Shown: positions 363 to 20,111 of the stretch, piece by piece
Layout: every line of letters starts with the position of its first letter
How positions within the stretch are numbered: position 1 is the first letter of the stretch
Source: Streptantibioticus rubrisoli
GTDB lineage: Bacteria > Actinomycetota > Actinomycetes > Streptomycetales > Streptomycetaceae
Assembly: GCF_024436055.1 (NCBI RefSeq)
Contig: NZ_JANFNH010000046.1
Coordinates: 538-32,537 of the forward strand
Reading direction: 5' to 3'
DNA length: 32,000 nucleotides
Translations under genes and position numbers: made by a program
Notes under the pieces: generated by a model
Told to the model about the DNA's origin: nothing
Database searches by the model: none
What the model saw: only the letters and a program-made list of their open reading frames with translations

Positions 363-429
363 CCGGGTGGGGCGGTCACCGGCCAATTGCCTGTTCCGTT
401 GTCGCCGCGTCAGGCGGTTCATCCCTGCG

Positions 430-825: not shown

Positions 826-1049
826 TCGCCGGGTGGAAGTAGGTGGTACATCCGGCCGACGAAGTGAGGCTGGAATACTGGCCACCACAATTGCCCACTG
901 GGGTAGTTAGGGGTTGGTCCGAAGATGGACCGCCCATAATCTCTCCAGGGAAGTTGAAATTTTCTGTCAAGTGCTGCGAGACCGGAGGCTGCGGTCGTCG
1001 GTGCCGTCCTCGTGCAGGGCTTGTTCGCTCAAATGAGGATTGGTGACAG

Positions 1050-1916
1050 GTGTTAGCGAATATGCAATCGCATTCGATTGCTGTGTTCGGTGCAGGTGTC
1101 ATGGGCCGCAGTATCACCGCACTGGCGCTGGGCCGCGGGGTGGACGTTGTCCTGGTGGACGTCTCGGACGACGTACTGCGGGATGCCCGAGCGGAGATCA
1201 CCCAGCAGATGCGGCACGGACAACTCATGGGTGCCTTCCCGGCTGACAAGACACCCGGAACATTGACGACGTCGCTGTCCAGCAAGGGTGCTGCGGACGC
1301 CGCCGTGGTGATCGAGGCGATCACCGAGGACGCCGCGCTCAAGGTACGGGTCATGGCGGAGATCTCCGGCGTGGTCCCCGCGGGTGTCCCGCTGATCACC
1401 AACACGTCCGGTATCCCCATCGCCGAACTGGCGAAGTCGGTGCAACGACCCACGGACCTGGCCGGGGTGCACTTCATGAATCCGGCCTATCTGATCGAGA
1501 TGGTCGAGGTGGTCCGTGGCCCGCAGACTGGCGACGACGCCATGGCCGTCGTCCTTTCCTTTCTCGAGGGGCTGGGGAAGAAAACGGTCGTCGTCCGAGA
1601 CGCGCCGGGATTCGTCACCAGCAGGCTGCTGCATCCCATGATCAACGAAGCGGCGAGAGTCGTGGCCGAGGGCACCGCGAGCGTTGAGTCCGTGGACCGG
1701 CTGATGCACGGATGTCTTGGTCATCCGACCGGTCCGCTGCGCACCGCCGATTTGATCGGACTCGACAACCTCGCGGACGCTCTGCGGCTGCTCGCCGAGC
1801 GGACCGGAAATCCCACCTTCGAGCCCTGCGAACTACTCATGGAAAAAGTGAGCCGCGGTGAGCTGGGGCGCAAGACGGGGCGCGGTTTCTACGACTACGG
1901 AGAGGTGCTTTCGTGA
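1050..1916 (+). CDS. fkbK: 3-hydroxyacyl-CoA/ACP dehydrogenase of the methoxymalonyl-ACP pathway (FkbK/Asm13-like)
   Basis: 288-aa ORF with an N-terminal Rossmann motif (IAVFGAGVMGRSI) and a 3HCDH-type C-terminal domain (GFVTSRLLHPMINEAARVV...GPLRTADLIGLD). It is the first gene of the K-J-I-H-G cassette. The GTG 1050 start is uncertain; ATG 1062 is an alternative. Its stop overlaps the next start (GTGA at 1913-1916). Confidence 0.85.
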   Translation: MLANMQSHSIAVFGAGVMGRSITALALGRGVDVVLVDVSDDVLRDARAEITQQMRHGQLMGAFPADKTPGTLTTSLSSKGAADAAVVIEAITEDAALKVRVMAEISGVVPAGVPLITNTSGIPIAELAKSVQRPTDLAGVHFMNPAYLIEMVEVVRGPQTGDDAMAVVLSFLEGLGKKTVVVRDAPGFVTSRLLHPMINEAARVVAEGTASVESVDRLMHGCLGHPTGPLRTADLIGLDNLADALRLLAERTGNPTFEPCELLMEKVSRGELGRKTGRGFYDYGEVLS

Positions 1917-2176
1917 GCCAGGACCTGACAACCACTGCTGAGAGTATCGCGCAGACGATCGCGGCGTTCGTCTCGAAGAGAGTCGGGGCGGACGTCCCGG
2001 CCGACAAGGACCTCTTCGAGTCCGGGCTGGTGTCCTCGCTGTTCGCGATGGAACTCGTCGTGCACCTGGAGCAGGCGTTCTCCGTGCAGATCCTGGGGGA
2101 CGACCTCAAGCGGGACAACTTCCGCTCCGTCCAGGCCATGACCGCCCTCGTGCTGCGGTTGAACGGCGCGGAGTAG
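1913..2176 (+). CDS. fkbJ: Discrete acyl carrier protein (FkbJ/Asm14-like)
   Basis: 87-aa acidic protein with a carrier-protein helix-II region (LFESGLVSSLFAMELVVHLE). It is translationally coupled to the upstream gene and sits where the cassette ACP is expected. Confidence 0.8.
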   Translation: MSQDLTTTAESIAQTIAAFVSKRVGADVPADKDLFESGLVSSLFAMELVVHLEQAFSVQILGDDLKRDNFRSVQAMTALVLRLNGAE

Positions 2177-2183
2177 CCCGCCG

Positions 2184-3293
2184 ATGCCTGAATCGCTCGC
2201 AGACGCCCATGAGTTGGTCGATGACCTGGTCGGTGATCAGGCTATCGAGTGGGACCGGGCCGGTCTGATCCCCGACGGCGTTCTGCGCACACTGGCGAAC
2301 CGCGGACTGCTGTGTGCGGAGGTACCGGAGGCTTCCGGCGGACTCGGGATGAGCAGCGCGGCGAACGGCGAGTTCACCGCGTTCGTCGGTAGCCGGTGCA
2401 GCTCGCTGCGCAGTGTGATGACCTCTCAGGGCATGGCCGCGTGGACGATCCAGCGCCTGGGCAGTTCGCGGCAGCACGCGGCGTACCTGCCGAGACTGGC
2501 CGGTGGCCAACTCGCCGCCGTCGCGTTCAGCGAGCCGGATGCGGGCAGCGATCTGTCGGCGATGACCACCACCATCGAACCCGACGGTGACGCCGTCGTC
2601 CTTCGCGGGCAGAAGGTCTGGACGACCGCGGCCCACTATGCCGACCTGATCGTGGTCGTCGGGCGCTACGGTTCCGGGGCCGCCGCGGTCGTGGTGCCGA
2701 CGTCGGCTTCGGGCGTCACCGTGACCAGGGTTCCGCGGCCGTCCGGCTGCCGGGCGGCGGGCCACGCGGACGTACGATTCGACGACGTGCGGCTGCCAGT
2801 CATCGCGGTACTCGGCGGCGGGCAGCCGCTGATGCTCCTGGTGACGACCGCGCTGGCGTACGGGCGGATCTCGGTCGCCTGGGGCTGCGTGGGCATCCTC
2901 CGGGCCTGTCTCGACGCCGCCCGTCATCACGCCCGGACCCGGCGGCAGTTCGGCAGGCCGCTCGCCCAGCACCAGCTCGTCGGCCGTCACCTGGCGAACC
3001 TGCTCACCGGTGAGCAGATCGCCACCCGGATGTGCGAACACGCCAGCCGGTGCTGGGACAGCGGCTCTCCCGACATGGTGGTCGCCTCTGTCCTCGCCAA
3101 GCAGGTGAGCGCCGTCCAGGCCGCACAGGGCGCCGCCGCGGCCGTGCAGGTCCTGGGTTCGGTGGCCGCGCACGAGGGCCATGCGGTCGAGCGTGCGTAC
3201 CGCGACGCAAAGCTCATGGAGCTCATCGAGGGCAGCACGGAGATCTGCCAGTTGATCCTCTCCGACCACGCGGTGTCCATGACGGCGAGGTGA
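2184..3293 (+). CDS. fkbI: Acyl-CoA/ACP dehydrogenase (FkbI/Asm15-like)
   Basis: 369-aa ORF with the three-domain ACAD layout. Motifs include AVAFSEPDAGSDL, GQKVWTTAA and the C-terminal YRDAKLMELIEGSTEICQLIL. Its position in the cassette fits. Confidence 0.88.
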   Translation: MPESLADAHELVDDLVGDQAIEWDRAGLIPDGVLRTLANRGLLCAEVPEASGGLGMSSAANGEFTAFVGSRCSSLRSVMTSQGMAAWTIQRLGSSRQHAAYLPRLAGGQLAAVAFSEPDAGSDLSAMTTTIEPDGDAVVLRGQKVWTTAAHYADLIVVVGRYGSGAAAVVVPTSASGVTVTRVPRPSGCRAAGHADVRFDDVRLPVIAVLGGGQPLMLLVTTALAYGRISVAWGCVGILRACLDAARHHARTRRQFGRPLAQHQLVGRHLANLLTGEQIATRMCEHASRCWDSGSPDMVVASVLAKQVSAVQAAQGAAAAVQVLGSVAAHEGHAVERAYRDAKLMELIEGSTEICQLILSDHAVSMTAR

Positions 3294-3302
3294 GACGACG
3301 AG

Positions 3303-4397
3303 ATGAGTCAAGGAGACACAGTGGCTGAACAGCCCTCGATCGTGAAGTGCCTGGTGTGGGACCTCGACAACACCCTGTGGCAGGGCACGCTGCTGGAGGA
3401 CGGCGAGGTGAAGCTCCCCGACTCCGTCCGCGAGCTCATCACCGAGCTGGACAGCCGGGGCATCCTCCAATCGGTTGCCAGCAAGAACGACCACGACCAG
3501 GCATGGCAGCAGCTGGAGGCGCTGGGCGTCGCCGAGTACCTCATCCTGCCGCGCATCGGCTGGGGCCCGAAGTCCGACTCGGTACGGGAGATCGCCGACG
3601 AGCTCAACTTCGCGCTCGACACCATCGCTTTCGTCGACGACCAGCCGTCGGAGCGGGCAGAAGTCGAGTTCCATTTGCCGCAGGTCCGCTGCTACGACGC
3701 CGAGCGGTTGCCCGAGTTCGCCGCTCTGCCGGAGTTCAGCCCGGCGACGGTCACGGTGGACTCGCGCCGTCGTCGGCAGATGTATCAGGCCGGATTCCTT
3801 CGCAAGGCGGCCGAGGCGGAGTTCCAGGGGCCGAGCGACGACTTCCTGCGTTCCTTGGAACTGGAGATGCGCATCGGACGCGCCACCGAGGACGAGTTGT
3901 CCCGTGTGGAGGAACTGACGCTGCGCACAAGCCAGATGAATGCCACGGGAGTGCACTACTCCATCTCCGATCTGCGTGGGCTGCTCGTCGATCCGCGGCA
4001 CGAGGTCCTGGTGACCACGCTCACCGACCGGTTCGGGCCGCACGGCGCGGTCGGCCTCCAACTGCTGGAGAGGCACGCGGCTGTGTGGAATCTGAAGCTG
4101 CTGGCCACGTCGTGCCGCGTGGTGTCATTCGGCGCTGGATCGGCGCTCCTCGGCTGGCTCGGCGACCAGGCCGCGCACGCGGGCGTCCACCTGGTCGCCG
4201 ACTTCCGGCGCACCGAACGCAACCGGATGATGGAGATCGCCTACCGTCTCGCCGGCTTCACCGACGAGCCCTGCGACTGCAGGGCCGGGCTGACCGCGCC
4301 CGCTCAGGAGGACATCCAGCGGCTACATCTGCTTCCGACGCCTTGCGACCCCCCGCCCACGATGAAGTTGCACACCGTCAGCCTCCAAAGCGCCTGA
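3303..4397 (+). CDS. fkbH: FkbH-family HAD phosphatase / glyceryl-ACP-forming enzyme (FkbH/Asm16-like)
   Basis: 364-aa ORF with the HAD DxDxT motif (VWDLDNTLW, DLDNT at 3360-3374). It also has SKND, FVDDQPSERAEV and the C-terminal LLATSCRVV active-site Cys region typical of FkbH proteins. GTG 3321, preceded by AGGAGA, is an alternative start. Confidence 0.9.
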   Translation: MSQGDTVAEQPSIVKCLVWDLDNTLWQGTLLEDGEVKLPDSVRELITELDSRGILQSVASKNDHDQAWQQLEALGVAEYLILPRIGWGPKSDSVREIADELNFALDTIAFVDDQPSERAEVEFHLPQVRCYDAERLPEFAALPEFSPATVTVDSRRRRQMYQAGFLRKAAEAEFQGPSDDFLRSLELEMRIGRATEDELSRVEELTLRTSQMNATGVHYSISDLRGLLVDPRHEVLVTTLTDRFGPHGAVGLQLLERHAAVWNLKLLATSCRVVSFGAGSALLGWLGDQAAHAGVHLVADFRRTERNRMMEIAYRLAGFTDEPCDCRAGLTAPAQEDIQRLHLLPTPCDPPPTMKLHTVSLQSA

Positions 4398-4442
4398 GTG
4401 CGGGCGCCCTCGACCGGTCCGATCAGAGAAGAAGGATGGCGC

Positions 4443-5120: not shown

Positions 5121-5150
5121 AGCCCTCCGCCCCGGCCTGCCGGGCTTCAC
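5117..5150. terminator. GC-rich hairpin between convergent genes (candidate bidirectional terminator)
   Basis: GTGAAGCCC (5117-5125) pairs perfectly with GGGCTTCAC (5142-5150) around a 16-nt GC-rich loop. It lies between the fkbG stop (5120) and the stop of the minus-strand gene (5174). There is no T-tract, which is usual for high-GC actinomycetes. Confidence 0.4.
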
Positions 5151-5173
5151 TCTGCCCGCCGCGAGTGCCGGGC

Positions 5174-6469
5174 TCAGCCGACCACCCTCGGCACGTACGC
5201 GGCGTGAGTCCCGTCGGCGTAGCGGCACAGTTCGACGCCGTACACCTCGGCGGGATAGAGCTGCCGACCGAGGAATTCGATGACCCGGTTGAATTCCGGC
5301 GGAAACTGGCTGGCCACGATGGCCATACGAAGTCTGCCGACAGCGAGATTCGCTTCAAGCGTGCGCAGAAACGAACTCTCGCCGAGGAAATAGCCTATTT
5401 GCGTTAGCAAATATTCGCCAGTGCTGTTGTGTAGCTGTGATGTGTACTCAAGCGACCGTTGCAGTATGTGCAGCGGCCAGTTTCGAGCACCGCTGCTCGC
5501 GTGGTCGAGTGTTTTCCCGAGGGCGTCGTTCTCATTCCATGTGTCGTGTGGCTCCACTACTTCGACCAGTGTCGGCACGCCTTTGGAATCGGCGAACAGG
5601 TGGGTGGAACTGAAGGAGTAGCCGTCCGTGTCCGGCATGACGTCCGCGGGGTTCCTGCGGATCAGCAGTAGCCGGGAGTCGGCGTCGTGCGCGTTGCCGA
5701 CCGCGGACAGCAGGTCCGGGTAGCGGACGAGGATCTCGTGCAGGGGCGGTTCGGGGTGGGCCGTCGTCGGTGTGAGCAGGGTGAGCCCCGCGCCGTTCTG
5801 CAGCACGATGCGCCGGTTCCGCGCTTCGGCGCGCGGTGTCGGCGGGCGCGACCCCTGCGGGCGCGCATGCCTGCCCGACTTCATCTGCCCTGGGTCCGCG
5901 GGCAGCACCGCCGGGCGTTCCAGCCAGGGGTCGATCGGGGTGACGGAGGAGTTCAGGATGAAGGCCAGCGTCTTGTACGTCCCGGTGAGGGCCAGTAGTT
6001 CGAGGAATTGCTCCTCGGTGTAGCGCTCGGCGAGTCGTTTCCAGGTGCTGTCCGAGATCACGGATCCGGTGTGGAGTTCGTCGACGGCTGTGAGGAGGGC
6101 GGCTTCGAAGAGTGTCCACTCGGAGGTGTCCTCTGAGGCGACCCGGGCGATCTCCGTTTCGCTCAACCCGACGAGGAGTCCCGCGGGGTGGTGGTGGGCC
6201 CAGATGTACGGGGCTTGGGAACGCCATGCCGTGCGCAGGATGACGAGTTCGCGCTCGCGTGCCGGGAGGACTTCGCCGGTGACGTGCTCTATCAGCGGCT
6301 GGATCGCGGGCAGCAGCGTCGGATGGTTGGCCATGGTCCGCGTGACGTTCGGCGGGGGCCGGTCCGCGAGGAGCCCGTTCAGCGCCTCCTTGGCCATCCG
6401 GGCATAGTCCTGGCCGGCGGGTGTGACGGCGAATTCCTCCGCGTCCTGTGGATCGATCCTGGGGCGCAT
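5174..6469 (-). CDS. Carboxymuconolactone decarboxylase (AhpD-like) family domain fused to a C-terminal PD-(D/E)xK-nuclease-like domain of unknown function
   Basis: ATG at 6469 is preceded by GAGGAAGAGGGA. The first ~190 aa match the CMD family (MANHPTLLPA...RERELVILRTAWRSQAPYIWAHHH...LSETEIARV...ALLTAVDEL...ISDSTWKRL). There is no stop before a further ~240 aa. That part (LHEILVRYPDLL...THLFADSKGVPTLVEVVEPHD...LRMAIVASQFPPEFNRVIEFLGRQ...VYGVELCRY) follows the layout of NucS/DUF4268-type restriction-endonuclease-fold proteins. The 111 codons upstream of 6469 in the listed ORF lack coding character. Confidence 0.65.
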   Translation of the reverse strand: MRPRIDPQDAEEFAVTPAGQDYARMAKEALNGLLADRPPPNVTRTMANHPTLLPAIQPLIEHVTGEVLPARERELVILRTAWRSQAPYIWAHHHPAGLLVGLSETEIARVASEDTSEWTLFEAALLTAVDELHTGSVISDSTWKRLAERYTEEQFLELLALTGTYKTLAFILNSSVTPIDPWLERPAVLPADPGQMKSGRHARPQGSRPPTPRAEARNRRIVLQNGAGLTLLTPTTAHPEPPLHEILVRYPDLLSAVGNAHDADSRLLLIRRNPADVMPDTDGYSFSSTHLFADSKGVPTLVEVVEPHDTWNENDALGKTLDHASSGARNWPLHILQRSLEYTSQLHNSTGEYLLTQIGYFLGESSFLRTLEANLAVGRLRMAIVASQFPPEFNRVIEFLGRQLYPAEVYGVELCRYADGTHAAYVPRVVG

Positions 6470-6854
6470 TCCCTCTTCCTCAAGCTCGCTCGTGTGTCGG
6501 CGTTTCAAGGGTGGGCGACTCGGTGGCGGAAGCCCAATTCGGCCGAGAGGTCCCCACGATAATGCAACGGTAAGGGCTCTCATGCATCGAGGATCGGGCA
6601 TAGGGGTACCCGTCGTCGTGACGAGTAGGGGTAGGGGATGTGATTGCAATAGCAAAGAACACATGTCGATTGAGTGCCTCAAAATCAAACCGAAAGCGAT
6701 TGGCGACACACGGGTTCCCCTGTAGCATCGCGCTTTGTTGGTCACGACTCGAACGGCGGTTCGGCGCCGCCGGATCCTTGGAGAACGGGCGTGTGGCGAC
6801 ACCTGCCCTCTCCCTGCCGAGCCTGCTGAGACGAAGAGTTAGGGGAGCGGTGCC
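6470..6854. promoter_or_regulatory. Divergent intergenic/promoter region between the CMD-fusion gene and the PKS gene
   Basis: 385-bp non-coding gap between divergent starts (6469 minus, 6855 plus) that is visibly more AT-rich than its flanks. It contains a perfect palindrome ATTGCAAT (6643-6650) and an inverted repeat TTGAG-tgc-CTCAA (6670-6682). A GGGGAG Shine-Dalgarno lies 7 nt before GTG 6855. Confidence 0.5.
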
Positions 6855-9800: not shown

Positions 9801-12800
9801 CTGCGTATGGCCAACACCGTGCTGTTCGACCACCCCACGCCAGACCGGATCGCGGATCATCTGGCCGCTGGGTTCACCCGCCCGGCAACCGGTGGTGTGC
9901 CGCCGGAGCCCGGCGCCGTCGAGGCGGACGATCCGGTCGTGATCGTGGGCATGGCCTGCCGCTTCCCCGGCGGGGTGGCCTCGCCGGAGGAGCTGTGGGA
10001 CCTGATCTCGGGCGAGACGGACGCCATCTCCGCGATGCCCACCGACCGCGGGTGGGCGTCGGAGATGCTGGCGACCGGCAGGCCGGGCGGGTTTTTGTAC
10101 GACGCGGACCGTTTCGATGCGGCGCTGTTCGGGATCTCGCCGCGTGAGGCGCAGGCGATGGACCCGCAGCAGCGGCTGGCGCTGGAGGTGAGCTGGGAGG
10201 CCGTGGAGCGGGCCGAGATAGCTCCGTCGTCCCTGCACGGCAGCCGGACCGGGGTGTTCGTGGGGGCGATGGCCCAGGACTACGGTCCGCGGTTGAAGGA
10301 CACCGCCGGTGACGCGGAAGGGTATCTGCTGACCGGTACCTCGCCGAGCGTCCTTTCCGGCCGGATCGCCTACACCCTGGGGCTGCGGGGTCCGGCGCTG
10401 ACCGTGGACACGGCCTGCTCCTCATCGCTGGTGGCGTTGCATCTCGCAGCGCAGGCGCTGAGGGCCGGCGAGTGCTCCCTGGCCCTGGCCGGCGGTGTCA
10501 CCGTGATGTCCGAGCCGGGGATCTTCATGGAGTTCGCCCGGCAGGGCGGTCTGTCACCCGACGGCCGCTGCAAGGCGTACGCGGAGGCCGCGGACGGCAC
10601 CGGGTGGTCCGAGGGCGTGGGCATCCTGGTGCTGCAACGGCTCTCGGACGCGATCCGGGACGGCCACCATGTGCTGGCGGTCCTGCGCGGTTCCGCGGTC
10701 AACTCCGACGGCGCGTCGAACGGCTTGACCGCGCCGAGTGGGGTCTCGCAGCGGCAGGTGATCCGCCAGGCCCTGGGCGCTGCGGGCTTGGTGCCCTCGG
10801 ACGTGGACGCGGTGGAGGGGCACGGCACCGGCACCCGGCTGGGTGACCCGATCGAGGCTCAGGCGCTGTTGGCCACCTACGGGCATGACCGGGACCGTCC
10901 GCTGCTGCTGGGGTCGTTGAAGTCCAACATCGGGCACACCCAGGCCGCCTCCGGTGTCGCGGGGGTCATCAAGATGGTCCTGGCGATGCGGCATGGTGTG
11001 CTGCCTCGGACGCTGCACGTGGACGCGCCTTCGTCGCAAGTGGACTGGTCGGCCGGTGCCGTGGAACTGCTCACCGAAACCGTTCCGTGGCCGCGGGCTG
11101 AGCGGCCCCGCCGTGCGGGTGTGTCGTCGTTCGGGATCAGCGGCACGAATGCGCACGTGATCATCGAGCAGCCGCCACAGAACCGGCCCGCTCGTCCCGC
11201 TGTGCCCGCACCGGCCGCGCTCCCGGCACAGGCCGGGCCCGCGGTGGTGCCGTGGCCGGTGTCGGCACGTACCGAGGCGGCGCTTGAGGCCGGGCTGGAT
11301 CGGCTGACCGCCTTCGTGGCCGAGACCGGCGCGGCGGCGCCGGACGTCGGCTACTCGCTGGCGACGACACGCTCCGAGCTGGAGCACCGGGCGGTCCTGC
11401 TGGCGACGACGGGCACGGACGGCACCGTGCGCGGTGACGGGCAGGCCGCGCGGGTGGCCGGGGGCACCGCGGTCGGCGACCCCGGCCCCGTGGCGCTACT
11501 GTTCGCGGGCCAGGGCGCGCAGCGGCTGGGTATGGGCCGCGACCTGTACGCGCGGTTCCCTGTGTTCGCGGCGGCATGGGACGAGGTCTGCACGCTGCTG
11601 GACGAGCAGCTGGAGCGGCCGCTGCGCGAAGTGGTGTTCGGCGACGACGCGGGGCCGCTGAACCGTACCGAGTACGCCCAGCCCGCGCTGTTCGCCCTTG
11701 AGGTGGCCCTCTTCCGGCTGGTGGAGTCCTGGGGGGCGGTGCCCGACGTCCTGGTCGGGCACTCGGTCGGTGAGATCTCGGCGGCACACGTGGCCGGAGT
11801 GCTGTCCCTGCAGGACGCGTGCACGCTCGTCGCCGCCCGCGGACGGCTGATGCAGGCCCTGCCGGAAGGCGGCGCCATGGTCGCACTGCGGGCCACCGAG
11901 GCCGAGGTGGCGCCGCTGCTCGCCGCTTCTGGGGGCCGGGTGGGGCTGGCCGCGGTCAACGGCCCGCAGGCCGTGGTGGTCTCCGGAGAGACCGCCGCGG
12001 TCGAGGCGATCGCGGACCGGTTCGCGGCCGACGGGCGCAAGGCGACGCGGTTGCGGGTCAGTCACGCGTTCCATTCCCCGCTGATGACGCCGATGTTGGA
12101 CGGCTTCCGCACGGTCGTCGAGCGCCTGGCTCTGGGCGAGCCTCGTATCCCGATCGTCTCGACCGTCACCGGGGAGGAGATCGACGCGGAGCGGATCTGC
12201 ACTCCCGGCCACTGGGTGGAGCACGTCGGGCTGACCGTGCGGTTCGCCGACGCGATCGCCGCGGCGGCCGCGACCGGAGCGCGCACCTTCTTGGAACTGG
12301 GACCGGACGCGACGCTGTCCGCGCTGGTCCAGGACGTCCTGATCGGCGCGGAGGACGTCGAGGCGGTGCCGCTGCTGGGCCGAGACCGCGGTGAGGAGGC
12401 CACGGCGGTGACGGCGGCTGCCCGGCTGTACGTCCGCGGCGTGCCGGTGCGGTGGGCCGAGTTGTTCGCCGGGACCGGTGCGCGCCGCATCGCGCTGCCG
12501 ACTTATGCCTTCCAGCGCGACCGGTACTGGATCGCTTCCACAGACACTGGCCCGGCGGCCGGGGTGGTCTGCGCAGGCCTGGACAGTGCCGCGCCCGCCC
12601 GTCGGACCGCCGCCACCGAGGCCTCCGACCCGCTGGCCGGGCTGACGGGCGACCAGGCCCGGGCCCATCTGCTGCAGTTGCTGCGCGAGGAGGCCGCCGC
12701 GGTGCTGGGACTGGCGGGCCCGGCGGCGGTCGCGGCCGGACGGTCGTTCAAGGACCTGGGCTTCGACTCCCTGACCGCCAACCAGTTGCGCAACGCCCTG

Positions 12801-15800
12801 CGCGAACGCACGGGCCTGCGCCTCCCCTCAACACTGGTCTACGACCACCCGACCCCCGAAGCACTGGCCGCCCACCTGATGACCAGGCTGGATGGTGGGA
12901 CCGGCGAGCGGCACCAGGGCGCCGCACCGGCCCTGGCCACGACGCGCGGCCCGGCGGCCGGGACGCCCGATGCCGAGCCGATCGCGATCATCGGAATGAG
13001 CTGCCGCTTCCCCGGCCGGGTGCGTTCGCCCGAGGACCTGTGGGAGCTGCTGGTGACGGGCACGGACGCCGTCTCGCCGCTGCCCGCCGACCGCGGCTGG
13101 GACCCGGATGTCTACCACCCCGACCCGGAGCGGGCTGGCAAGACCTCCGCGGGGGCGGGTGGCTTCCTCGACGGGGCCGCCGGATTCGACGCGGGATTCT
13201 TCGGGATCTCCCCGCGTGAGGCGGCTGCGATGGACCCTCAGCAGCGGATACTGCTGGAGCTCGCCTGGGAGGCGTTCGAACGCGCCGGGCTCGACCCGGC
13301 CTCCCTGCGCGGAAGCACGACCGGCACGTTCGTCTCCGCGCTCCCCCAGACCTACGGTGCGGGAGCCTCGGCGGACGCCGACGGATACCAGCTCACCGGA
13401 ACGATCCCCAGCGTGCTGTCGGGCCGTCTGGCCTACTTCTTCGACTTGGCCGGGCCCTCGGTGACGGTGGACACGGCCTGTTCCTCCTCCCTGGTCGCGC
13501 TCCACACCGCGTGCCAGTCGCTGCGTTCGGGGGAAAGCAGCTTCGCTCTGACAGGCGGTGCGACGGTGCTGGCCAGCCCGGACGTGATGGTCTCGTTGAG
13601 TCGACACCGGGTCATGGCGCCGGACGGGCGGTGCAAGCCGTTCGCCGAGACGGCGGACGGCATGGGCATCGCCGAAGGCGCTGGCCTGCTGGTGCTGGAG
13701 AGGCTCTCGGACGCCCTGCGGCACGGCCACCAGGTGCTGGCCGTGATCCGTGGGTCGGCGGTGAACTCCGACGGTGCCTCCAACGGGCTGACCGCGCCCA
13801 GCGGTCCGGCGCAGCAGCGGGTCATCCGGCAGGCCCTGGCCAACAGCGGACTTGCCGCGTCCGAAGTCGACGCCGTCGAGGCACACGGTACCGGCACCGC
13901 GCTGGGCGATCCGATAGAGGCGCACGCACTGTCGGCCACCTACGGCCAGGACCGTGGCGGCAACCCGCCATTGCTGGTCGGCTCGATCAAGTCCAACATC
14001 GGGCACACCCAGACCGCCGCCGGTGTCGCGGGTGTCATCAAGATGGTGATGGCGCTGCAGCACGGCCAGCTGCCCAAGACGCTGCACGTCACCGAGCCGT
14101 CTTCGCGCATCGACTGGAACGCGGGCGCGCTCCGTCTGCTGAACGAGACCACGCCGTGGCCCCTTCTCGGCCGACCGCGGCGGTGCGCGGTCTCGGCATT
14201 CGGTATGAGCGGCACCAACGCGCACGCCATCCTTGAACAGGCTCCCACGCTCGCCGATCAGCCCGTGAGCGGGACCAACGCGCTGGCCGGACTCGTCCCG
14301 GCGCCCGCCGACCAGCCCCTGCCGGGCCCGGCATCGGGCGACCCGGTGGCCTGGCCGCTCTCGGGCAAGTCCACCGCCGCGCTACGCGCCCAGGCCCGGA
14401 AACTCCTCACCCACCTGGAGAACCACCCCGAGCTGCGGCTCATCGACGTCGGATACTCGCTAGCGACGACCCGTACCGCGTTCGAGCACCGGGCGGTGCT
14501 GGTCGGCGATGACCGCGCGGCGTTGCACGAGAGCCTGACCGCCCTGGCCCAGGGCACCCCGCATCCCGGTGTGCTGCGGGGAACCGCGCCCGAACGCGGC
14601 CCGGTGGTGTTCGTCTTCCCCGGTCAGGACGCGGCCTGGCCCGGAATGGCGGCCAAGCTCCTGGACGCCTCGCCCGTCTTCGCCGCCCGCGCCGAGGAGT
14701 GCCAGGCGGCCCTGGCCCCCTACGTCGACTGGTCGCTCGCCGACGTGATGCGTGGCGAGCGTGGTGCGCCTCCGTTCGAGGGGCGGCCCGACGTGCAGCA
14801 GCCCGTGCTGTGGGCCGTCATGGTCTCTCTCGCCGCTGTGTGGCGTTCGCTCGGGGTCGAGCCTGCTGCGGTTGTCGGTCATTCCCAGGGTGAGGTCGCT
14901 GCCGCCTGCGTCAGCGGCGGTTTGTCCCTGGAGGACGGTGCCCGTGTGGTGGCGCTGCGCAGCCGCCTGATCCGTGAACGGTTGTCCGGAAGCGGCGCGA
15001 TGATGTCGGTGATGGCCCCGCCCGAGCAGGTCCAGGCGGTGCTGGACGAGGTCGGCGGCGCGGTTTCGATCGCGGCGGTCAACGGCCCGAGGATCGTGAC
15101 GATCTCCGGCGACCCGGCCGCTCTGAACGAGGTCGAGCGCGGCCTGTCCGCTGCCGGGCTCATGCGCTGGCGGCTTCCCGGGGTGGACTTCGCCGCCCAC
15201 TCCGCGCACATCGACCAGATCGAGCCCGAATTGCTGGAGCTGTTGGCCGACGTAACGCCCCGCGCGTCGCAGGTGCCGTTCTACTCCACGGTGACCGGAG
15301 GCCGCCTGGACACCAAGGAACTGGACGCCCGCTACTGGTGCCGCAACCTGCGCGAGACCGTGTCCTTCGCCGAGACGATGACGGGCCTGGTGCGCGAGGG
15401 GCACGGCGTCATGATCGAGGTCAGCCCGCATCCCGTGCTCGCGGTCGGCACCATCGAGATCATCGAGAACGCGGGCAGCCTCGCGGTCACCCTGGGCACA
15501 CTGCGCCGCGACGACGGCGGATGGGACCGCGTCGTGCGCTCGCTGGGGGAGGCCCACGCCCACGGGGTGCCCGTCGACTGGCCGACGGTGCTGGCCGGTG
15601 GCCGCGCGGTGGACCTGCCGACCTACGCTTTCCAGCACGAGTCCTACTGGACCGCCCCGCCCACCCCGGCACCCCACACATCCGGCTCCGCCGCCGGACC
15701 GCTGTGGGAGGTGGTGGACCAGCAGGACGCCGCTGCCCTCGCCACGCTCATCGGTCTCGACGCCGAACACAAGGACGCTCTCGACGCGGTACTCCCCGCG

Positions 15801-18446
15801 CTGTCCGCCTGGCGCAAGCGGCAGGACCAGCACGCCCTGGTCAGTACCCGCCGCTACCGGACGGCCTGGACCCCCCTGCGCGTCCCCACCGACCCGACCC
15901 TGACCGGCACCTGGCTGGCCGTCACCACCGGCGGTGCCGACGACGCGGACGTATTGGACGCCCTGACCGCACACGGCGCCCGACTCCGCCGCGTGGTCCT
16001 CGACAAGACCTGCACCGCCCCCGAGACACTCACGGCACGACTCGGCGACCTCGACGGTACTGCCGGAGTGCTCTCGCTCCTCGCCGCGGCCGAGGAAGCC
16101 GACGCCGACCAGACCGCACTACCCGTCGGCCTGGCCCTGACCGTCTCCCTGACCCAGGCCCTGATGGCCTCCGGTACCCGGACGCCGTTGTGGACGGTGA
16201 CACGCGCCGCGGTCTGCACCGGCCCGGGCGACCCGGTACGCAACCCGCGCCAGGCCATGACCCTCGGACTCGCGCGTACCGCCACCCTGGAAGCACCCTC
16301 GCTGCGCGGCGGACTGGCCGACCTACCTGAGCGGCTCGATGCCGAGACAGCCAGCCGGTTCGCCTCGCTGCTCTCGCAGGGCCCGGGTGAGGACCAGGCG
16401 GCGGTGCGCTCTTCGGGCGTCCTCGTTCGGCGCTTGGTGAAGGCACCCGCACGGGCCGGCTCCCCCGCCACCTGGACACCCCGTGGCACGACTTTGATCA
16501 CCGGCGGTACCGGAGCCCTGGGCGGCAGGACCGCCCGCTGGCTCGCCCGGCAGGGTGCCGAGCACCTGGTACTGCTCAGCCGCCGCGGCCCCGCCGCACC
16601 CGGTGCCGCCGAGTTGATGGCGGAGCTGAACGCCCAGGGGACGACCGCCGAGACGGTGTCCTGCGACCTGACTGACAAGGACGCCGTGGCCGCCGTAATT
16701 GACGAGCTGTCAGCGAACGGTACCCCGGTGCGCTCGGTGTTCCACCTGGCCGGTACCCGCGCCCTCGGCCCGCTCGCCACGGCCAGTCTCGACCATGTCG
16801 CCGACGCGGTGCACGCCAAGGTGGCTGGTGCCACGCACCTCGACGAACTCCTCGGCGACACCGAACTGGACGCCTTCGTCCTGCCCTCGTCGGTGGCCGG
16901 AACCTGGGGCGTGGGCGACCACGCCGCCCAGGCGGCGGCCGGTGCGTACCTGGAGGCGCTGGCGGCACGGCGTCGCGCCCGCGGTGCCTGCGCGACAGCG
17001 ATCTTCTTCGGCCCCTGGGAAGAAGCCCGCGAGCAACTGGGCGAACGCGCCAGCGAGCGGCTCCTTCGCACCGGGGTGTCCTTCCTTGATGGCGGCATGG
17101 CCCTGGCTGGCCTCGCCCAAGCACTCCACGAGGACGAAAGCGCGTTGACGGTCGCCGACATCGACTGGAAGCGCTACCTCCCCGTCGTCACCACAGCAGG
17201 CCCCAACCCTCTCTTCAGCGAACTGCCCGAGGCCCAAGACCTCGCCGAGTCCGATCCCACCACCGCGAACGGCGAGTTCACGACGCGGCTACGGAGCCTC
17301 CCGGCCACCGAGCAGCGGCGACTGCTCCTGGACCTGATACGCAACGAGGCCGCGGCAGCGCTCGGCCACGCATCCGGCGACGCGGTCGCCGAGCACGCGG
17401 CATTCCGCGACCACGGGATGGATTCCCTGGCGGCGGTCGACCTGCGCAACCGGCTCGCTGCGGCGACCGGCACCGCCCTGCCCAGCACCGCCGTCCTTAC
17501 CCACCCCACCCCGGCCGACCTGGCCAGCCACCTCCTCGACCACCTGGCCACCATGCCGACACCCAACCAGGGCACCGTCGGCGCCTCCCCGACGGACCTG
17601 GTCGTCCGCCTCCACCGCGAGGCTGTTCGAACCAGCCGCCTGGAGGACGCCGACGCCCTGCTGTCCAGCCTCGCCGCCCTGAGGCCCAAGAGCACCGAGC
17701 CCCTCCCGCCCATCGTGGACCGGCTCACCGCCAGCACCTCGGGCCCCCGCCTGATCTGCGTGGCCCCGGTCGTGCCCCTGACCGGCCCGGACACCTACTT
17801 CGCACTCGCCCAAGCTCTCCCCGAACACTGGGCTATCTCCTGTCTCACGCCCCCCGGCTTCGGCAGGGACGAGGCCCTGCCCGCCACCCGCGAAGCACTC
17901 GTGGCAGGGCTGGCACGGGCCGTGGACGCCGAAACCAGCAGCGACAGCACCGCCAGCAACGCGGCCGCCGAGCCGGTGGTCCTCCTGGGCACCTCATCCG
18001 GCGGCATCCTTGCCCACGAAACCGCCCGTTACCTCGCTGACCACGGCACCGCTGTGCAGGCCGTCATCCTCCTGGACACCTACGACCTGCAAACCCCCAC
18101 CGCCCGCGCGCTCCTTCCCCATCTGTGGCACGGCCTGTACGAGCGCGAGCAGCTCACCGGCGGCTACACCGCCACCGCCTTGTCCGCCTATGCCTGGACC
18201 GAACGACTCCTCCGCACCTGGACCCCTGAGCCCGCCCCCTTCCCGACCCTGCTCCTACAGGCATCGGAGCTCTTCCCGGTCCCGCCGGGAACGGACACGG
18301 GACCGCACGGCTGGCAGACCACTCTTCCCCACATCACCACCACTCTCACTACGCCAGGCAACCACTTCACCCTCATCAACCAGCACGCTCTCACCGCCGC
18401 AACCCACATCACCGACTGGCTCAGTGAACGGGGGTGCACCGGCTGA
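6855..18446 (+). CDS. Type I modular polyketide synthase, single polypeptide: KSQ-AT-ACP / KS-AT-ACP / KS-AT-KR0-ACP-TE
   Basis: Uninterrupted 3,863-aa ORF containing three KS, three AT, three ACP, one KR and one TE domain. All are recognisable from catalytic motifs (see the domain features). No DH or ER motifs and no docking domains were seen. A terminator-like hairpin follows the stop. Confidence 0.97.
6891..8143 (+). other. PKS domain: KSQ (loading-type ketosynthase, active-site Cys replaced by Gln)
   Basis: The active-site motif reads [16 protein letters not shown], with Gln175 (CAG, 7377-7379) where DTACSSS is expected. HGTGT and [10 protein letters not shown] are retained. Confidence 0.9.
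8451..9503 (+). other. PKS domain: AT1, methylmalonyl-type signature
   Basis: Motifs are [25 protein letters not shown] (Ser627 at 8733-8735) and YASH (9036-9047). The domain ends at [11 protein letters not shown]. Confidence 0.85.
9639..9866 (+). other. PKS domain: ACP1
   Basis: [11 protein letters not shown], with the phosphopantetheine Ser967 at 9753-9755. Confidence 0.9.
9930..11172 (+). other. PKS domain: KS2 (canonical)
   Basis: [13 protein letters not shown]; [14 protein letters not shown] with Cys1188 at 10416-10418; [12 protein letters not shown]; [10 protein letters not shown]. Confidence 0.93.
11487..12530 (+). other. PKS domain: AT2, malonyl-type signature
   Basis: Motifs are [32 protein letters not shown] (Ser1637 at 11763-11765) and HAFH (12063-12074). 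Confidence 0.85.
12651..12882 (+). other. PKS domain: ACP2 (follows AT2 directly; no reductive domains in this module)
   Basis: [11 protein letters not shown], with Ser1972 at 12768-12770. Only about 40 residues of linker separate the post-[13 protein letters not shown] from the ACP. Confidence 0.9.
12975..14244 (+). other. PKS domain: KS3 (canonical)
   Basis: [12 protein letters not shown]; [14 protein letters not shown] with Cys2209 at 13479-13481; [12 protein letters not shown]; [10 protein letters not shown]. Confidence 0.93.
14599..15650 (+). other. PKS domain: AT3, non-canonical signature (candidate methoxymalonyl-ACP-specific AT)
   Basis: [12 protein letters not shown] replaces the usual GQGSQW. 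Also present are RPDVQQP, GHSQGE (Ser2677 at 14883-14885) and FAAH (15189-15200) in place of YASH/HAFH. Confidence 0.6.
15700..17220 (+). other. PKS domain: KR (structural plus catalytic subdomains) with catalytic Tyr and Asn substituted; predicted inactive (KR0)
   Basis: Structural-subdomain motifs are present (WRKRQ...[47 protein letters not shown]). The Rossmann motif [16 protein letters not shown] (about 16501) and Lys3322 (16818-16820) are also present. However, [26 protein letters not shown] aligns without gaps to the consensus SSxAGxWGxxGQxxYAAANAYLDALA. That alignment puts Gln3359 (16929-16931) at the catalytic Tyr and Gly3363 (16941-16943) at the Asn. Confidence 0.8.
17310..17545 (+). 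other. PKS domain: ACP3
   Basis: [15 protein letters not shown], with Ser3524 at 17424-17426. Confidence 0.9.
17593..18443 (+). other. PKS domain: C-terminal thioesterase (type I TE)
   Basis: GxSxG reads LLGTSSGG (Ser3714 at 17994-17996). An Asp region (ILLDTYD) and the C-terminal PGNHFTL (His3837 at 18363-18365) are present. Confidence 0.85.
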
Positions 18447-20063: not shown

Positions 20064-20111
20064 CGCTCAGGTAGTTGCTCGTCGGAGCGCCGAAAAGCGT
20101 CCGGGGCTGAG

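What the first reader, a model, noticed from the sequence alone, without database searches (positions are those of the whole stretch)
1050..18446. Orphan mini assembly line: a complete methoxymalonyl-ACP cassette serving a single-polypeptide KSQ-primed PKS-TE, predicted product a C8 methoxy-triketide pyrone
Seen in sequence: five co-directional, tightly packed genes (3HCDH, ACP, ACAD, FkbH, OMT) lie in the asm13-17 order. A single PKS follows, and its motifs give KSQ-AT(YASH)-ACP / KS-AT(HAFH)-ACP / KS-AT(FAAH)-KR(Tyr to Gln)-ACP-TE. It has no DH, no ER and no docking domains. Established knowledge: this five-gene set builds methoxymalonyl-ACP from a glycolytic intermediate in the FK520, ansamitocin and geldanamycin pathways, which are large macrocycle assembly lines. 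Inference: here the whole cassette would feed one extension of a triketide. Colinear reading gives propionyl (decarboxylated methylmalonyl), then malonyl, then methoxymalonyl, with both beta-keto groups retained. That yields 2-methoxy-3,5-dioxoheptanoyl-ACP, expected to be released as 6-ethyl-4-hydroxy-3-methoxy-2-pyrone (C8H10O4). Small pyrones act as signals or germination inhibitors in some bacteria, so a signalling role is conceivable but purely speculative. No regulator, transporter, resistance gene or PPTase is present in the window. I cannot tell whether this locus matches a characterised cluster.
Basis: partly seen in the sequence, partly recalled or inferred. Interest (0 to 1): 0.8.

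Follow-up and report, generated by a model that had tools for sequence, protein, structure and literature searches.

The report
Mini methoxymalonyl polyketide synthase cluster
A small, self-contained gene cluster in Streptantibioticus rubrisoli pairs the five genes for the rare methoxymalonyl building block with a three-module polyketide synthase. Relatives in about ten other species show that this strain's enzyme has cleanly lost two of its domains.

Summary
Window 1050-18446 carries 3HCDH, ACP, ACAD, FkbH and OMT genes and one 3863-aa PKS.

- A sixth accessory gene (5174-6469, minus strand) lies between the OMT gene and the PKS gene. It encodes an AhpD/CMD-like protein and is conserved in every related locus.
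- The seven genes form a discrete island in at least ten Streptomyces/Streptantibioticus genomes, with unrelated flanks. A remote relative occurs in Jidongwangia.
- The related synthases carry an extra DH-KR pair in module 1 (4561 aa in S. antimycoticus). The window enzyme has an in-frame deletion of that pair at nt 12587|12588. Module-1 ketoreduction was lost three separate times in the family.

The P450 is separated from the cluster by insertion sequences and is absent next to the PKS in the one relative seen there. No other PKS genes flank the cluster, so the line is complete.

The predicted product, 6-ethyl-4-hydroxy-3-methoxy-2-pyrone, is the best colinear reading for this strain only. 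It is untested. I found no characterised counterpart, but no MIBiG comparison was possible.

Verdict: a real, orphan, ordinary-logic cluster with an interesting evolutionary series.

The parts
1062..1916 (+). 3-hydroxyacyl-CoA dehydrogenase homologue (FkbK/Asm13 role). An alternative GTG start lies at 1050.
   Evidence: Pfam 3HCDH_N and 3HCDH, E 1e-45 and 1e-29. The gene is called at this start in the native record. It is 84-93% identical in the Streptomyces/Streptantibioticus loci L004-L008 and L010, and 64% in Jidongwangia L009. dN/dS is 0.15-0.18.
1913..2176 (+). Discrete ACP that carries the extender unit (FkbJ/Asm14 role). Its start overlaps the 3HCDH stop codon.
   Evidence: PP-binding, 27.6 bits against a cut-off of 20.8. 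NCBIfam acyl carrier protein PRK07081, E 2e-9, below that model's cut-off. The attachment motif reads GLVSSL, not DSL. dN/dS is 0.18-0.44.
2184..3293 (+). Acyl-CoA dehydrogenase-like enzyme (FkbI/Asm15 role).
   Evidence: Pfam Acyl-CoA_dh_N, _M and _1. dN/dS is 0.16-0.27.
3303..4397 (+). FkbH-family phosphatase/glyceryl transferase (Asm16 role).
   Evidence: TIGR01686 FkbH domain, 360.6 bits against a cut-off of 146.65. DLDNT motif at residue 20. An exact-match look-up places the window in GCA_042648065.1, contig JBHRWQ010000001.1.
4443..5120 (+). SAM-dependent O-methyltransferase (FkbG/Asm17 role). The longest ORF starts at 4398.
   Evidence: Methyltransf_3, E 3e-63, 213 bits. dN/dS is 0.23-0.27.
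5174..6469 (-). The N-terminal domain is AhpD/CMD-like and has no cysteine (WAHHH where AhpD has CxxC). The C-terminal domain is a drifting, nuclease-like domain.
   Evidence: Weak Pfam CMD hit. AF2 model with Foldseek hits to Atu0492, Bmp8 and AhpD, E 3e-4. The best PDB hit for the C-domain is EndoMS/NucS, E 0.012. The gene is present in all related loci. dN/dS is 0.26-0.32 for the N-domain and 0.88-1.55 for the C-domain. The CMD domain stands alone in Jidongwangia and is fused to an MBL-fold hydrolase in L012.
6470..6854 (.). Divergent promoter region between the CMD-like gene and the PKS gene. It has a conserved block about 60-120 nt upstream of the PKS start and two TAGGGGT motifs.
   Evidence: Alignment of eight loci. 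TAGGGGT at 6601 and 6626. L011 has ATG at the position of the window's GTG start.
6855..18446 (+). Trimodular type I PKS, 3863 aa: KSQ-AT-ACP / KS-AT-ACP / KS-AT-KR0-ACP-TE.
   Evidence: Pfam domains and motifs read. It is 80-92% identical and colinear with related enzymes apart from the DH-KR gap. dN/dS per domain is 0.16-0.57.
6891..9863 (+). Loading module: KSQ (DTGQSSS), AT1 (GHSQG, RVR-x5-YASH) and ACP1. Predicted to load methylmalonyl and decarboxylate it to a propionyl starter.
   Evidence: The KSQ and the YASH/RVR motifs are invariant in all related enzymes.
9933..12878 (+). Module 1: KS2 (Cys), AT2 (GHSVG, HAFH; malonyl) and ACP2, with no reductive domains.
12587..12588 (+). Scar of the in-frame deletion (aa 1911|1912, AGLDS|AAPARRT) that removed the DH-KR pair found in related enzymes: about 700 aa overall (3863 against 4561 aa), 729 aa measured against L006.
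   Evidence: The S. antimycoticus PKS is 4561 aa. Both ancestral junctions share the microhomology GCCTGG(A/T)C.
12975..17519 (+). Module 2: KS3 (Cys), AT3 (GHSQG, MRW-x6-FAAH; predicted methoxymalonyl-ACP), KR0 (NADPH motif kept, Tyr3359→Gln, Asn→Gly) and ACP3.
   Evidence: The MxW rule is from PMC4207774. FAAH is reported in PMC8944477. KR0 dN/dS is 0.31-0.35.
17751..18410 (+). Thioesterase with an intact Ser/Asp/His triad.
   Evidence: Pfam Thioesterase. The triad is conserved in P0001 and P0002. The closest solved TE is the tautomycetin TE 3lcr (113 bits), ahead of the DEBS TE (83 bits).
363..1061 (.). Upstream intergenic region, presumed to hold the promoter of the five-gene operon. It has one TAGGGGT motif at 908.

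Best explanation
Window 1050-18446 is a complete seven-gene type I PKS cluster of Streptantibioticus rubrisoli.

**Extender-unit supply (inferred from homology to the fkbGHIJK/asm13-17 pathway).**
- FkbH loads a glycolytic C3 unit onto the discrete ACP.
- The 3HCDH and ACAD homologues oxidise it to hydroxymalonyl-ACP.
- The OMT converts that to methoxymalonyl-ACP.

**Chain assembly (colinear reading).**
- KSQ and AT1 (YASH) make a propionyl starter.
- Module 1 (HAFH) adds malonate with no reduction.
- Module 2 takes methoxymalonyl-ACP through AT3, the only AT with the MxW/FAAH signature.
- The module-2 KR cannot reduce, because its catalytic Tyr is Gln.
- The resulting 2-methoxy-3,5-dioxoheptanoyl-ACP leaves as 6-ethyl-4-hydroxy-3-methoxy-2-pyrone (C8H10O4). 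Release is either spontaneous or through the TE.

**Status of each step.** The gene and domain content, the motif states, conservation, purifying selection and cluster boundaries are shown here. Substrate choices, the release mode and the product are inferred.

**Family context.** This synthase is a derived form. The family prototype has DH-KR in module 1, and this strain removed that pair by an in-frame deletion at domain boundaries. The conserved AhpD/CMD-like domain is most likely a pathway enzyme of unknown reaction.
For: - Gene and domain assignments.
- FkbH scores 360 bits, above its curated cut-off.
- AT3 has MRW..FAAH, whereas AT1 has RVR..YASH and AT2 has K-A-T..HAFH. The motif rule comes from PMC4207774 and FAAH from PMC8944477.
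- Background control for the ATs.
- The KR Tyr→Gln change is conserved in three family members (71-74% identical over the compared C-terminal region) and absent from 118 of 118 other KRs.
- The TE triad is intact.
- The seven-gene unit is syntenic in L002, L004-L008 and L010-L012, and its flanks are unrelated.
- All domains are under purifying selection. Changes specific to the window lineage number 54 non-synonymous against 85 synonymous.
- The native contig has no other PKS gene within 10 kb upstream.
- Unreduced triketides on type I PKSs cyclise to alpha-pyrones even without a TE (PMC10204065).
Against: - No product was measured.
- No comparison with MIBiG or antiSMASH was possible.
- AT3 specificity rests on motifs only.
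- The TE is closest to a hydrolytic TE. The family prototype, with DH and KR intact, cannot lactonise through C5, so the TE may hydrolyse.
- The CMD-like enzyme may modify the product further.
- The deletion could impair transfer within module 1.
- The discrete ACP has GLVSSL in place of the usual DSL motif.
Confidence: 0.5

Rival explanations
1. The enzymes are the same but release differs. The TE hydrolyses the chain to 2-methoxy-3,5-dioxoheptanoic acid. That acid is then decarboxylated, possibly by the AhpD/CMD-like domain, to 1-methoxyhexane-2,4-dione. In the prototype the equivalent product would be 1-methoxyhex-3-en-2-one. The pyrone would be at most a shunt product.
For: - The TE is closest to the tautomycetin TE, which by my own knowledge releases a linear acid: 113 bits, against 83 for the DEBS TE.
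- The S. antimycoticus prototype has intact DH and KR in module 1. Its enoyl triketide has no C5 oxygen available for lactonisation.
- The CMD family is named after a decarboxylase. The CMD domain is under selection (dN/dS 0.26-0.32) and is the constant partner of the cassette in Jidongwangia.
- In L012 the CMD domain is fused to an MBL-fold hydrolase.
Against: - Unreduced ACP-bound triketides cyclise spontaneously (PMC10204065).
- The CMD-like domain has no demonstrated activity. Its closest folds are AhpD-type proteins and the debrominase Bmp8, not a proven decarboxylase.
Confidence: 0.2
2. In this strain the cluster is a decaying remnant. The DH-KR deletion and the IS-rich surroundings reflect loss of function, and no product is made.
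For: - Six transposase-type ORFs lie directly downstream.
- Module-1 domains are missing.
- The ratio of lineage-specific non-synonymous to synonymous changes is 0.64 in the window. It is 0.29-0.44 in relatives with an intact KR.
Against: - All seven ORFs are intact and every catalytic motif is present.
- The deletion is in frame and falls at domain borders.
- A count ratio of 0.64 is far below the roughly 3 expected for neutral change. That expectation is my own estimate from codon structure, not a tool result.
- Module-1 ketoreduction was lost three independent times while the rest of the enzyme was kept. That looks like a tolerated or favoured change, not decay.
Confidence: 0.15
3. AT3 does not use methoxymalonyl-ACP. 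It might take hydroxymalonyl-ACP or methylmalonyl-CoA instead, or the loading AT might take malonyl to give an acetate starter. The product would then differ in its substituent or chain length.
For: - Specificity is inferred from short motifs only.
- AT3 has GHSQG, the form typical of methylmalonyl ATs, whereas PMC4207774 reports Leu at that position in the FK520 methoxymalonyl ATs.
- The closest solved ATs are the AT of 6iyr and ATs of DEBS, tylactone and Pik synthases. By my own knowledge these load substituted malonyl units.
Against: - A complete and selected cassette, including the OMT, sits next to the PKS in every locus.
- MRW replaces the basic RxR only in AT3.
- FAAH has been reported for a methoxymalonate-assigned AT.
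Confidence: 0.1

Closest known systems
Methoxymalonyl-ACP subclusters fkbGHIJK (FK520) and asm13-17 (ansamitocin)
   Same: The same five protein families are present: FkbH, a discrete ACP, a 3HCDH, an ACAD-like enzyme and a Methyltransf_3 OMT. They are tightly packed and co-directional. asm13-17 is documented as a transplantable five-gene unit (PMC6164871).
   Different: Here the cassette serves one extension of a triketide, not a large macrocycle line. The cluster also carries a conserved AhpD/CMD-like gene that, to my knowledge, those clusters lack. The match to the asm gene order rests on my own knowledge and was not tested against the asm sequence.
Venemycin synthase VemG/VemH (type I PKS that makes a triketide alpha-pyrone)
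   Same: Two non-reducing extension modules are followed by a TE. The expected product is a 4-hydroxy-2-pyrone formed from an unreduced triketide (PMC10204065).
   Different: Vem uses an adenylation-type loading module with a dihydroxybenzoate starter, two proteins and malonyl units only. Here the synthase has KSQ priming, is a single polypeptide, uses a methoxymalonyl extender and retains a dead KR. Sequence relatedness to Vem was not tested.
DEBS1-TE and other truncated or engineered triketide lactone synthases
   Same: The layout is loading module plus two extension modules plus TE. Relatives with an active module-1 KR should give a six-membered lactone, as DEBS1-TE does.
   Different: This family is natural, not engineered. 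It has no active KR in the last module and uses malonyl and methoxymalonyl units. The family also contains naturally occurring versions with the KR or the DH-KR pair deleted.
Tautomycetin PKS thioesterase (PDB 3lcr)
   Same: It is the closest solved TE by sequence, E 1.6e-31 and 113 bits.
   Different: The similarity is only at the domain level. The tautomycetin PKS is a long line that makes a linear product. No functional test was done.
AhpD/CMD-fold proteins, including the debrominase Bmp8
   Same: The N-terminal domain of the 5174-6469 product has this fold (Foldseek E 3e-4 to 1e-3, TM 0.6-0.8 on the target). Bmp8 shows that this fold can be used for natural-product tailoring.
   Different: The domain has no cysteine at all, so it cannot carry out AhpD- or Bmp8-type thiol chemistry. 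It has a WAHHH motif in place of CxxC.

Membership tests
Methoxymalonyl-ACP biosynthesis cassette (fkbGHIJK / asm13-17 type) | FkbH-family HAD phosphatase/glyceryl transferase | tested here: met
   TIGR01686, 360.6 bits against a cut-off of 146.65. DxDxT motif DLDNT.
Methoxymalonyl-ACP biosynthesis cassette (fkbGHIJK / asm13-17 type) | Dedicated discrete ACP | tested here: met
   PP-binding, 27.6 bits against 20.8. The attachment motif is atypical (GLVSSL).
Methoxymalonyl-ACP biosynthesis cassette (fkbGHIJK / asm13-17 type) | 3-hydroxyacyl-CoA dehydrogenase and acyl-CoA dehydrogenase homologues | tested here: met
   Pfam 3HCDH_N and 3HCDH; Acyl-CoA_dh_N, _M and _1.
Methoxymalonyl-ACP biosynthesis cassette (fkbGHIJK / asm13-17 type) | SAM-dependent O-methyltransferase | tested here: met
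   Methyltransf_3, E 3e-63.
Methoxymalonyl-ACP biosynthesis cassette (fkbGHIJK / asm13-17 type) | Actually produces methoxymalonyl-ACP | not testable with these tools
   This needs an enzyme assay or incorporation into a product.
cis-AT modular type I PKS with a KSQ loading module | N-terminal KS with Gln in place of the active-site Cys, followed by AT and ACP | tested here: met
   DTGQSSS at residue 173. It is invariant in nine related enzymes: DTGQSSS or DTGQSSA in the eight Streptomyces/Streptantibioticus loci and DTAQSSS in Jidongwangia.
cis-AT modular type I PKS with a KSQ loading module | Extension modules with a Cys-His-His KS, an integrated AT and an ACP, plus a terminal TE | tested here: met
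   DTACSSS, HGTGT and N(I/V)GH motifs; GHSxG; three PP-binding hits; the TE triad.
Methoxymalonyl-ACP-specific AT domains | Hydrophobic MxW in place of the basic RxR before the YASH position (Haydock rule) | tested here: met
   AT3 has MRW with one extra residue before FAAH. AT1 has RVR. The family members P0001, P0002 and L012 keep MRW. The rule is quoted from PMC4207774. None of 48 background YASH/HAFH ATs has it.
Methoxymalonyl-ACP-specific AT domains | Non-Gln residue at X of GHSXG, as reported for the FK520 methoxymalonyl ATs | tested here: not met
   AT3 has GHSQG. PMC4207774 reports Leu in FkbA-AT1 and FkbA-AT2. I do not know whether this feature is general.
Methoxymalonyl-ACP-specific AT domains | Transfers methoxymalonyl from the ACP | not testable with these tools
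   This needs an in-vitro transacylation assay.
Type I PKS triketide alpha-pyrone synthases (venemycin type) | Two extensions with no beta-keto processing before release | tested here: met
   Module 1 has no reductive domain. The module-2 KR lacks Tyr and Asn. This is true of the window, and by other routes of L005 and L012, but not of the family prototype.
Type I PKS triketide alpha-pyrone synthases (venemycin type) | The product is a 4-hydroxy-2-pyrone | not testable with these tools
   Prediction only.
AhpD/CMD superfamily (product of 5174-6469) | AhpD-like helical fold | tested here: met
   Pfam CMD, 25 bits against 23. Foldseek hits to 2gmy, 6ohj, 6e8l and 7xw1. Model pLDDT is 79-94 across residues 71-170.
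AhpD/CMD superfamily (product of 5174-6469) | CxxC redox motif of AhpD-type peroxidases | tested here: not met
   The N-domain has no cysteine. WAHHH occupies the site.

The most novel reading that the evidence does not exclude
The family makes small alpha-methoxy polyketides whose oxidation state differs between species: a linear enone, a dihydropyrone or an aromatic pyrone. Module-1 ketoreduction was lost three independent times, once by a point mutation, once by a KR deletion and once by a DH-KR deletion. On this reading, those losses reflect selection for switching the product, for example as species-specific diffusible signals. The cysteine-free AhpD/CMD-like domain would be a new kind of polyketide tailoring enzyme, such as a decarboxylase or isomerase.
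Probability: 0.12. Interest if true: 0.7.

Novelty: new member of a known kind. Interest (0 to 1): 0.42.

Why it matters
If the prediction holds, this is, as far as I could find, the smallest natural assembly line that uses methoxymalonyl-ACP. A five-gene precursor pathway would be kept for a single extension of a C8 molecule.

The family also offers a natural experiment for PKS engineers. Closely related synthases differ only in module 1:
- DH and KR both intact.
- DH dead, KR intact.
- KR inactivated by a point mutation.
- KR deleted.
- DH-KR deleted.

The last two show where in-frame cuts are tolerated, just after the post-AT linker and just before the ACP linker.

The single 11.6-kb gene plus the 4-kb cassette is small enough to express heterologously. 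It could serve as a portable test bed for methoxymalonate incorporation. The conserved AhpD/CMD-like domain is a candidate new tailoring activity.

Tried and rejected
**Searches that failed or found nothing.**
- The whole-PKS homology search timed out. I used the C-terminal 924 aa instead.
- The exact-match look-up of the S. rubrisoli CMD protein P0121 found nothing. I therefore could not check the deletion in a second, independent assembly.
- A profile search of the C-domain against PDB sequences found nothing.
- Eight literature searches found no characterised product or cluster of this architecture. Two genome papers on the violaceusniger clade do not mention it.
- The plasmid collection holds no related locus.

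**Ideas tested and rejected.**
- That the upstream MBL-fold lactonase, MarR, two-component system and ABC transporter genes belong to the cluster. None is conserved in related loci. The MBL part of the L012 fusion protein is unrelated to the window's MBL protein.
- That the P450, ferredoxin and reductase genes are tailoring genes. They are separated from the PKS by insertion sequences. They are absent downstream of the L002 PKS, where housekeeping genes such as gyrB follow.
- That the nuclease-like C-domain makes the seventh gene a DNA-binding regulator. The domain evolves neutrally (dN/dS 0.9-1.5), has lost the Lys of the D..EVK motif, and is missing in Jidongwangia and L012.
- That the two Rfam ASpks hits are small RNAs. 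Both lie inside KS coding sequence.
- bldA control through TTA codons. There are none.

Full report
**Source and gene layout.** An exact-match look-up of the FkbH protein places the window on contig JBHRWQ010000001.1 (132,857 bp) of assembly GCA_042648065.1. The product of the seventh gene is 100% identical to a protein annotated in Streptantibioticus rubrisoli. G+C is 65-75%.

Codon-position G+C and Pfam/NCBIfam searches give this map:
- 3HCDH, 1062-1916.
- ACP, 1913-2176.
- ACAD, 2184-3293.
- FkbH, 3303-4397.
- OMT, 4443-5120.
- An AhpD/CMD-like gene on the minus strand, 5174-6469.
- One PKS gene, 6855-18446.
- Six transposase-type ORFs, between 18.5 and 29.4 kb.
- A ferredoxin, ferredoxin reductase and P450 operon, 24455-27301, minus strand.
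- An EACC1 gene and a caspase-like gene near the 3' end.

**Checking the observation.**
- Loading module: KS1 DTGQSSS; AT1 GHSQG with RVR-x5-YASH; ACP1.
- Module 1: KS2 DTACSSS; AT2 GHSVG with HAFH; ACP2.
- Module 2: KS3 DTACSSS; AT3 GHSQG with MRW-x6-FAAH; a KR; ACP3.
- Release: a TE with GTSSG, LLDTY and GNHF.

The KR keeps TGGTGALG, the Lys and the Ser. At the catalytic Tyr and Asn positions it reads [11 protein letters not shown]. The protein has no DH, no ER and no docking domains. FkbH scores 360.6 bits against a curated cut-off of 146.65 and has the DxDxT motif. The five cassette genes are nearly contiguous, with gaps of -4, 7, 9 and 45 bp.

Two background controls show that the unusual motifs are not noise:
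- 118 of 118 non-family KR homologues carry Tyr where this enzyme has Gln.
- Of 51 background ATs, 48 are YASH or HAFH and all of these have basic residues at the RxR position. One is CAGH, and only the two family members have MRW..FAAH.

A 431-aa gene lies on the opposite strand between the OMT and PKS genes, followed by a 385-bp divergent promoter region.
- Its N-terminal half has the AhpD/CMD fold. Pfam CMD scores 25 bits. The AlphaFold model has pLDDT 79-94 over residues 71-170. Foldseek matches Atu0492, the debrominase Bmp8 and AhpD proteins at E 3e-4 to 1e-3.
- This domain contains no cysteine. WAHHH sits where AhpD has CxxC.
- Its C-terminal half resembles the N-terminal part of hypothetical proteins that carry a D..EVK motif. 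In the cluster proteins the motif reads EVV.
- A separate model of the C-terminal half (pLDDT 76.5) finds EndoMS/NucS as its only suggestive PDB hit, at E 0.012.
- The N-domain is under purifying selection (dN/dS 0.26-0.32). The C-domain evolves neutrally (0.88-1.55).

**The cluster is a conserved seven-gene island.** A scan of species-representative genomes with the CMD-like protein found seven loci. Look-ups by identity added four more related loci, L002, L003, L011 and L012.
- The same seven genes occur in the same order and orientation in:
  - Streptomyces sp. PLK1-5 (L004);
  - Streptantibioticus ferralitis (L005);
  - S. silvisoli (L006);
  - S. malaysiensis (L007);
  - S. sp. NPDC020096 (L008);
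  - S. sp. WG7 (L010);
  - S. antimycoticus (L011);
  - L012, whose CMD fusion protein P0130 is annotated in Streptomyces sp. NPDC088725.
- Protein identity to the window is 77-93% for the cassette genes and about 80-92% for the PKS.
- L002 (GCA_000820785.2) shows the CMD gene and a full-length PKS.
- No gene upstream of the window cassette is found in the related loci. No flanking gene is shared among those loci.
- Downstream of the L002 PKS come DUF4192, NUDIX, GntR, a sigma factor and gyrB. There is no P450 and no insertion sequence.
- No locus shows further PKS genes on the cassette-side flank, and the one PKS-side flank seen (L002) has none, so the line is complete.
- No conserved regulator, transporter or PPTase belongs to the island.

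Jidongwangia harbinensis (L009) holds a remote, rearranged relative:
- the cassette, at 59-76% identity to the window proteins;
- a stand-alone CMD domain, 64% identical;
- methylmalonyl-CoA mutase and a giant carboxylase;
- a PKS that begins KSQ-AT(VASH)-ACP-KS-AT(HAFH) and is 55% identical and colinear with the window enzyme.

**The window PKS is a deletion variant.** The related synthases are about 700 aa longer; the S. antimycoticus enzyme is 4561 aa. Alignment places the gap after window residue 1911. The window reads AGLDS|AAPARRT (nt 12587|12588). Relatives carry a DH-KR pair between those two segments. The deletion is in frame and runs from the end of the post-AT linker to the start of the ACP linker. 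The two ancestral junctions share the microhomology GCCTGG(A/T)C.

The state of module 1 differs across the family:

| Locus | DH | Module-1 KR |
|---|---|---|
| S. antimycoticus (L011) | fully intact (HxxxGxxxxP, GLAYGPAF, DxxxH) | B-type, LDD, catalytic Tyr present |
| S. malaysiensis (L007), WG7 (L010) | His motif kept, other DH motifs degenerate | Tyr present |
| L004, L006, L008 | 5-aa deletion inside the His motif | Tyr present |
| S. ferralitis (L005) | same 5-aa deletion | Tyr→Cys |
| L012 (4199-aa PKS) | retained, catalytic His lost | deleted in frame |
| Window | deleted | deleted |

A neighbour-joining tree of the first 1900 residues groups the sequences as follows:
- L005 is the sister of L008.
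- The window falls in a clade with L006, L008 and L005.
- L004 branches next, and L012 lies outside that group.

Because enzymes with an intact KR separate the three variants, module-1 ketoreduction was lost three independent times.

In relatives, dN/dS is 0.45-0.53 for the DH and 0.22-0.46 for the KR catalytic subdomain, against 0.14-0.43 for KS2.

**Is the window enzyme still functional?** The evidence favours yes, though it is indirect.
- All domains give dN/dS of 0.16-0.57 against four relatives. The dead module-2 KR gives 0.31-0.35, similar to the TE at 0.32-0.39.
- Substitutions unique to the window lineage number 54 non-synonymous and 85 synonymous. My own estimate from codon structure is that neutral change would give about three non-synonymous per synonymous.
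- All seven ORFs are open and none contains a TTA codon.
- The module-2 KR Tyr→Gln change is shared by the window, L002 (P0001) and L003 (P0002). It therefore predates their divergence within the family.

**Mechanism.** The cassette is inferred to make methoxymalonyl-ACP, by homology to the fkb and asm pathways. That rests on established knowledge; asm13-17 is cited as a transplantable five-gene unit in PMC6164871.

AT3 is the only AT suited to an ACP-bound extender. ATs that use CoA-linked substrates have RxR-x5-YASH, and methoxymalonyl-ACP ATs have hydrophobic MxW there (PMC4207774). AT1 has RVR and AT3 has MRW. FAAH has been noted in an AT assigned to methoxymalonate (PMC8944477). One feature does not fit: AT3 has GHSQG, whereas the FK520 methoxymalonyl ATs are reported to have Leu at that position.

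The colinear reading gives a propionyl starter, then malonyl, then methoxymalonyl, with both keto groups kept. The product on ACP3 would be 2-methoxy-3,5-dioxoheptanoyl-ACP. Unreduced triketides on type I PKSs cyclise to 4-hydroxy-2-pyrones even without a TE (PMC10204065). For this strain, 6-ethyl-4-hydroxy-3-methoxy-2-pyrone is therefore the best prediction.

The prediction should differ for relatives. Those with an active KR and a dead DH should give a dihydropyrone. S. antimycoticus should give a 4-enoyl-3-keto acid that cannot lactonise.

The TE is closer to the tautomycetin TE (113 bits) than to the DEBS TE (83 bits) or the Pik TE (50 bits). By my own knowledge the tautomycetin TE is hydrolytic. 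The ancestral release mode may therefore be hydrolysis. The conserved CMD-like domain, which L012 has fused to an MBL-fold hydrolase, may act on the released acid. This is the main rival to the pyrone.

**Comparison with known systems.** In logic, the closest are the venemycin triketide pyrone synthase and DEBS1-TE-type triketide synthases, combined with an asm13-17-type cassette. Eight literature searches found no characterised cluster or compound of this design. No related locus occurs in the plasmid collection. I could not run antiSMASH or a MIBiG comparison, so 'orphan' remains provisional.

**Verdict.** The parts and their logic are canonical, so I class this as a new member of a known kind. 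The points of interest are:
- a whole methoxymalonate pathway kept for one extension of a C8 product;
- a conserved, cysteine-free AhpD-like partner;
- a natural series of reductive-loop loss that ends in the clean DH-KR excision seen in this window.

Noticed in passing
window 908-914, 6601-6607, 6626-6632: The heptamer TAGGGGT occurs three times in 32 kb (1.09 expected by chance). All three copies lie in the two promoter-bearing intergenic regions of the cluster. L004 and L005 have the same two-plus-one layout. L006, L008 and L010 keep only the site upstream of the 3HCDH gene. L007 and L011 have none. It may be a clade-specific operator or promoter element.
   Followed up: partly
window 6730-6800: A block about 60-120 nt upstream of the PKS start is conserved in all eight aligned loci. 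It includes the inverted repeat CGGCGG...CCGCCG and a TAGCAT/TAGTAT element just upstream. It may be a 5' leader hairpin or an operator.
   Followed up: no
window 18529-29353: An IS-rich stretch begins 83 bp after the PKS stop. It holds rve_3 integrase-type ORFs at 18529-19788, 20558-21250, 21260-22354 and 28589-29353, an IS4/5 fragment at 22510-22956 and an IS110 transposase at 23144-24253. In L002 the PKS is followed instead by housekeeping genes.
   Followed up: partly
window 24455-27301 (minus strand): A self-contained ferredoxin (27071-27301), ferredoxin reductase (25708-27081) and P450 (24455-25693) operon sits between insertion sequences. It is not linked to the cluster in the one relative whose downstream flank was seen, L002.
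   Followed up: partly
window 10854-10922 and 13917-13991 (minus strand): Two Rfam ASpks 'sRNA' hits score above the gathering threshold (64 and 53.5 bits). Both lie antisense inside the KS2 and KS3 coding sequence. They most likely reflect conserved KS sequence and not an RNA gene.
   Followed up: no
window 30659-31848: Adjacent ORFs with a weak EACC1 hit (effector-associated constant component; E 0.005, below the cut-off) and a caspase-like Peptidase_C14 hit (E 3e-5). They may form a conflict or defence module.
   Followed up: no
window 3-362; L001 6128-7060: An MBL-fold gene lies 700 bp upstream of the cassette. Its C-terminus resembles AidB-type N-acyl-homoserine lactonases (E 5e-16, well below the family cut-off). 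This is suggestive next to a predicted lactone or pyrone cluster, but the gene is not conserved in related loci.
   Followed up: yes
L012 10001-11527: In one related locus (CMD protein annotated in Streptomyces sp. NPDC088725) the CMD-like domain is fused behind an MBL-fold hydrolase, not in front of the nuclease-like domain. The domain thus has three partner states across the family: fused to the nuclease-like domain, fused to the hydrolase, or standing alone as in Jidongwangia.
   Followed up: partly
L009 3-9918: The Jidongwangia relative of the cluster carries two methylmalonyl-CoA mutase genes and a 1891-aa single-chain acyl-CoA carboxylase (BC-BCCP-central-CT) beside the cassette. These are probably dedicated precursor-supply genes.
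   Followed up: no
L008 17207-18316; L010 16705-19761; L011 15928-16593: Each related locus has a different regulator gene near the island: MmyB-like in L008, a large LuxR/LAL type in L010, TetR in L011, and MarR in the window's own contig. None is conserved.
   Followed up: no
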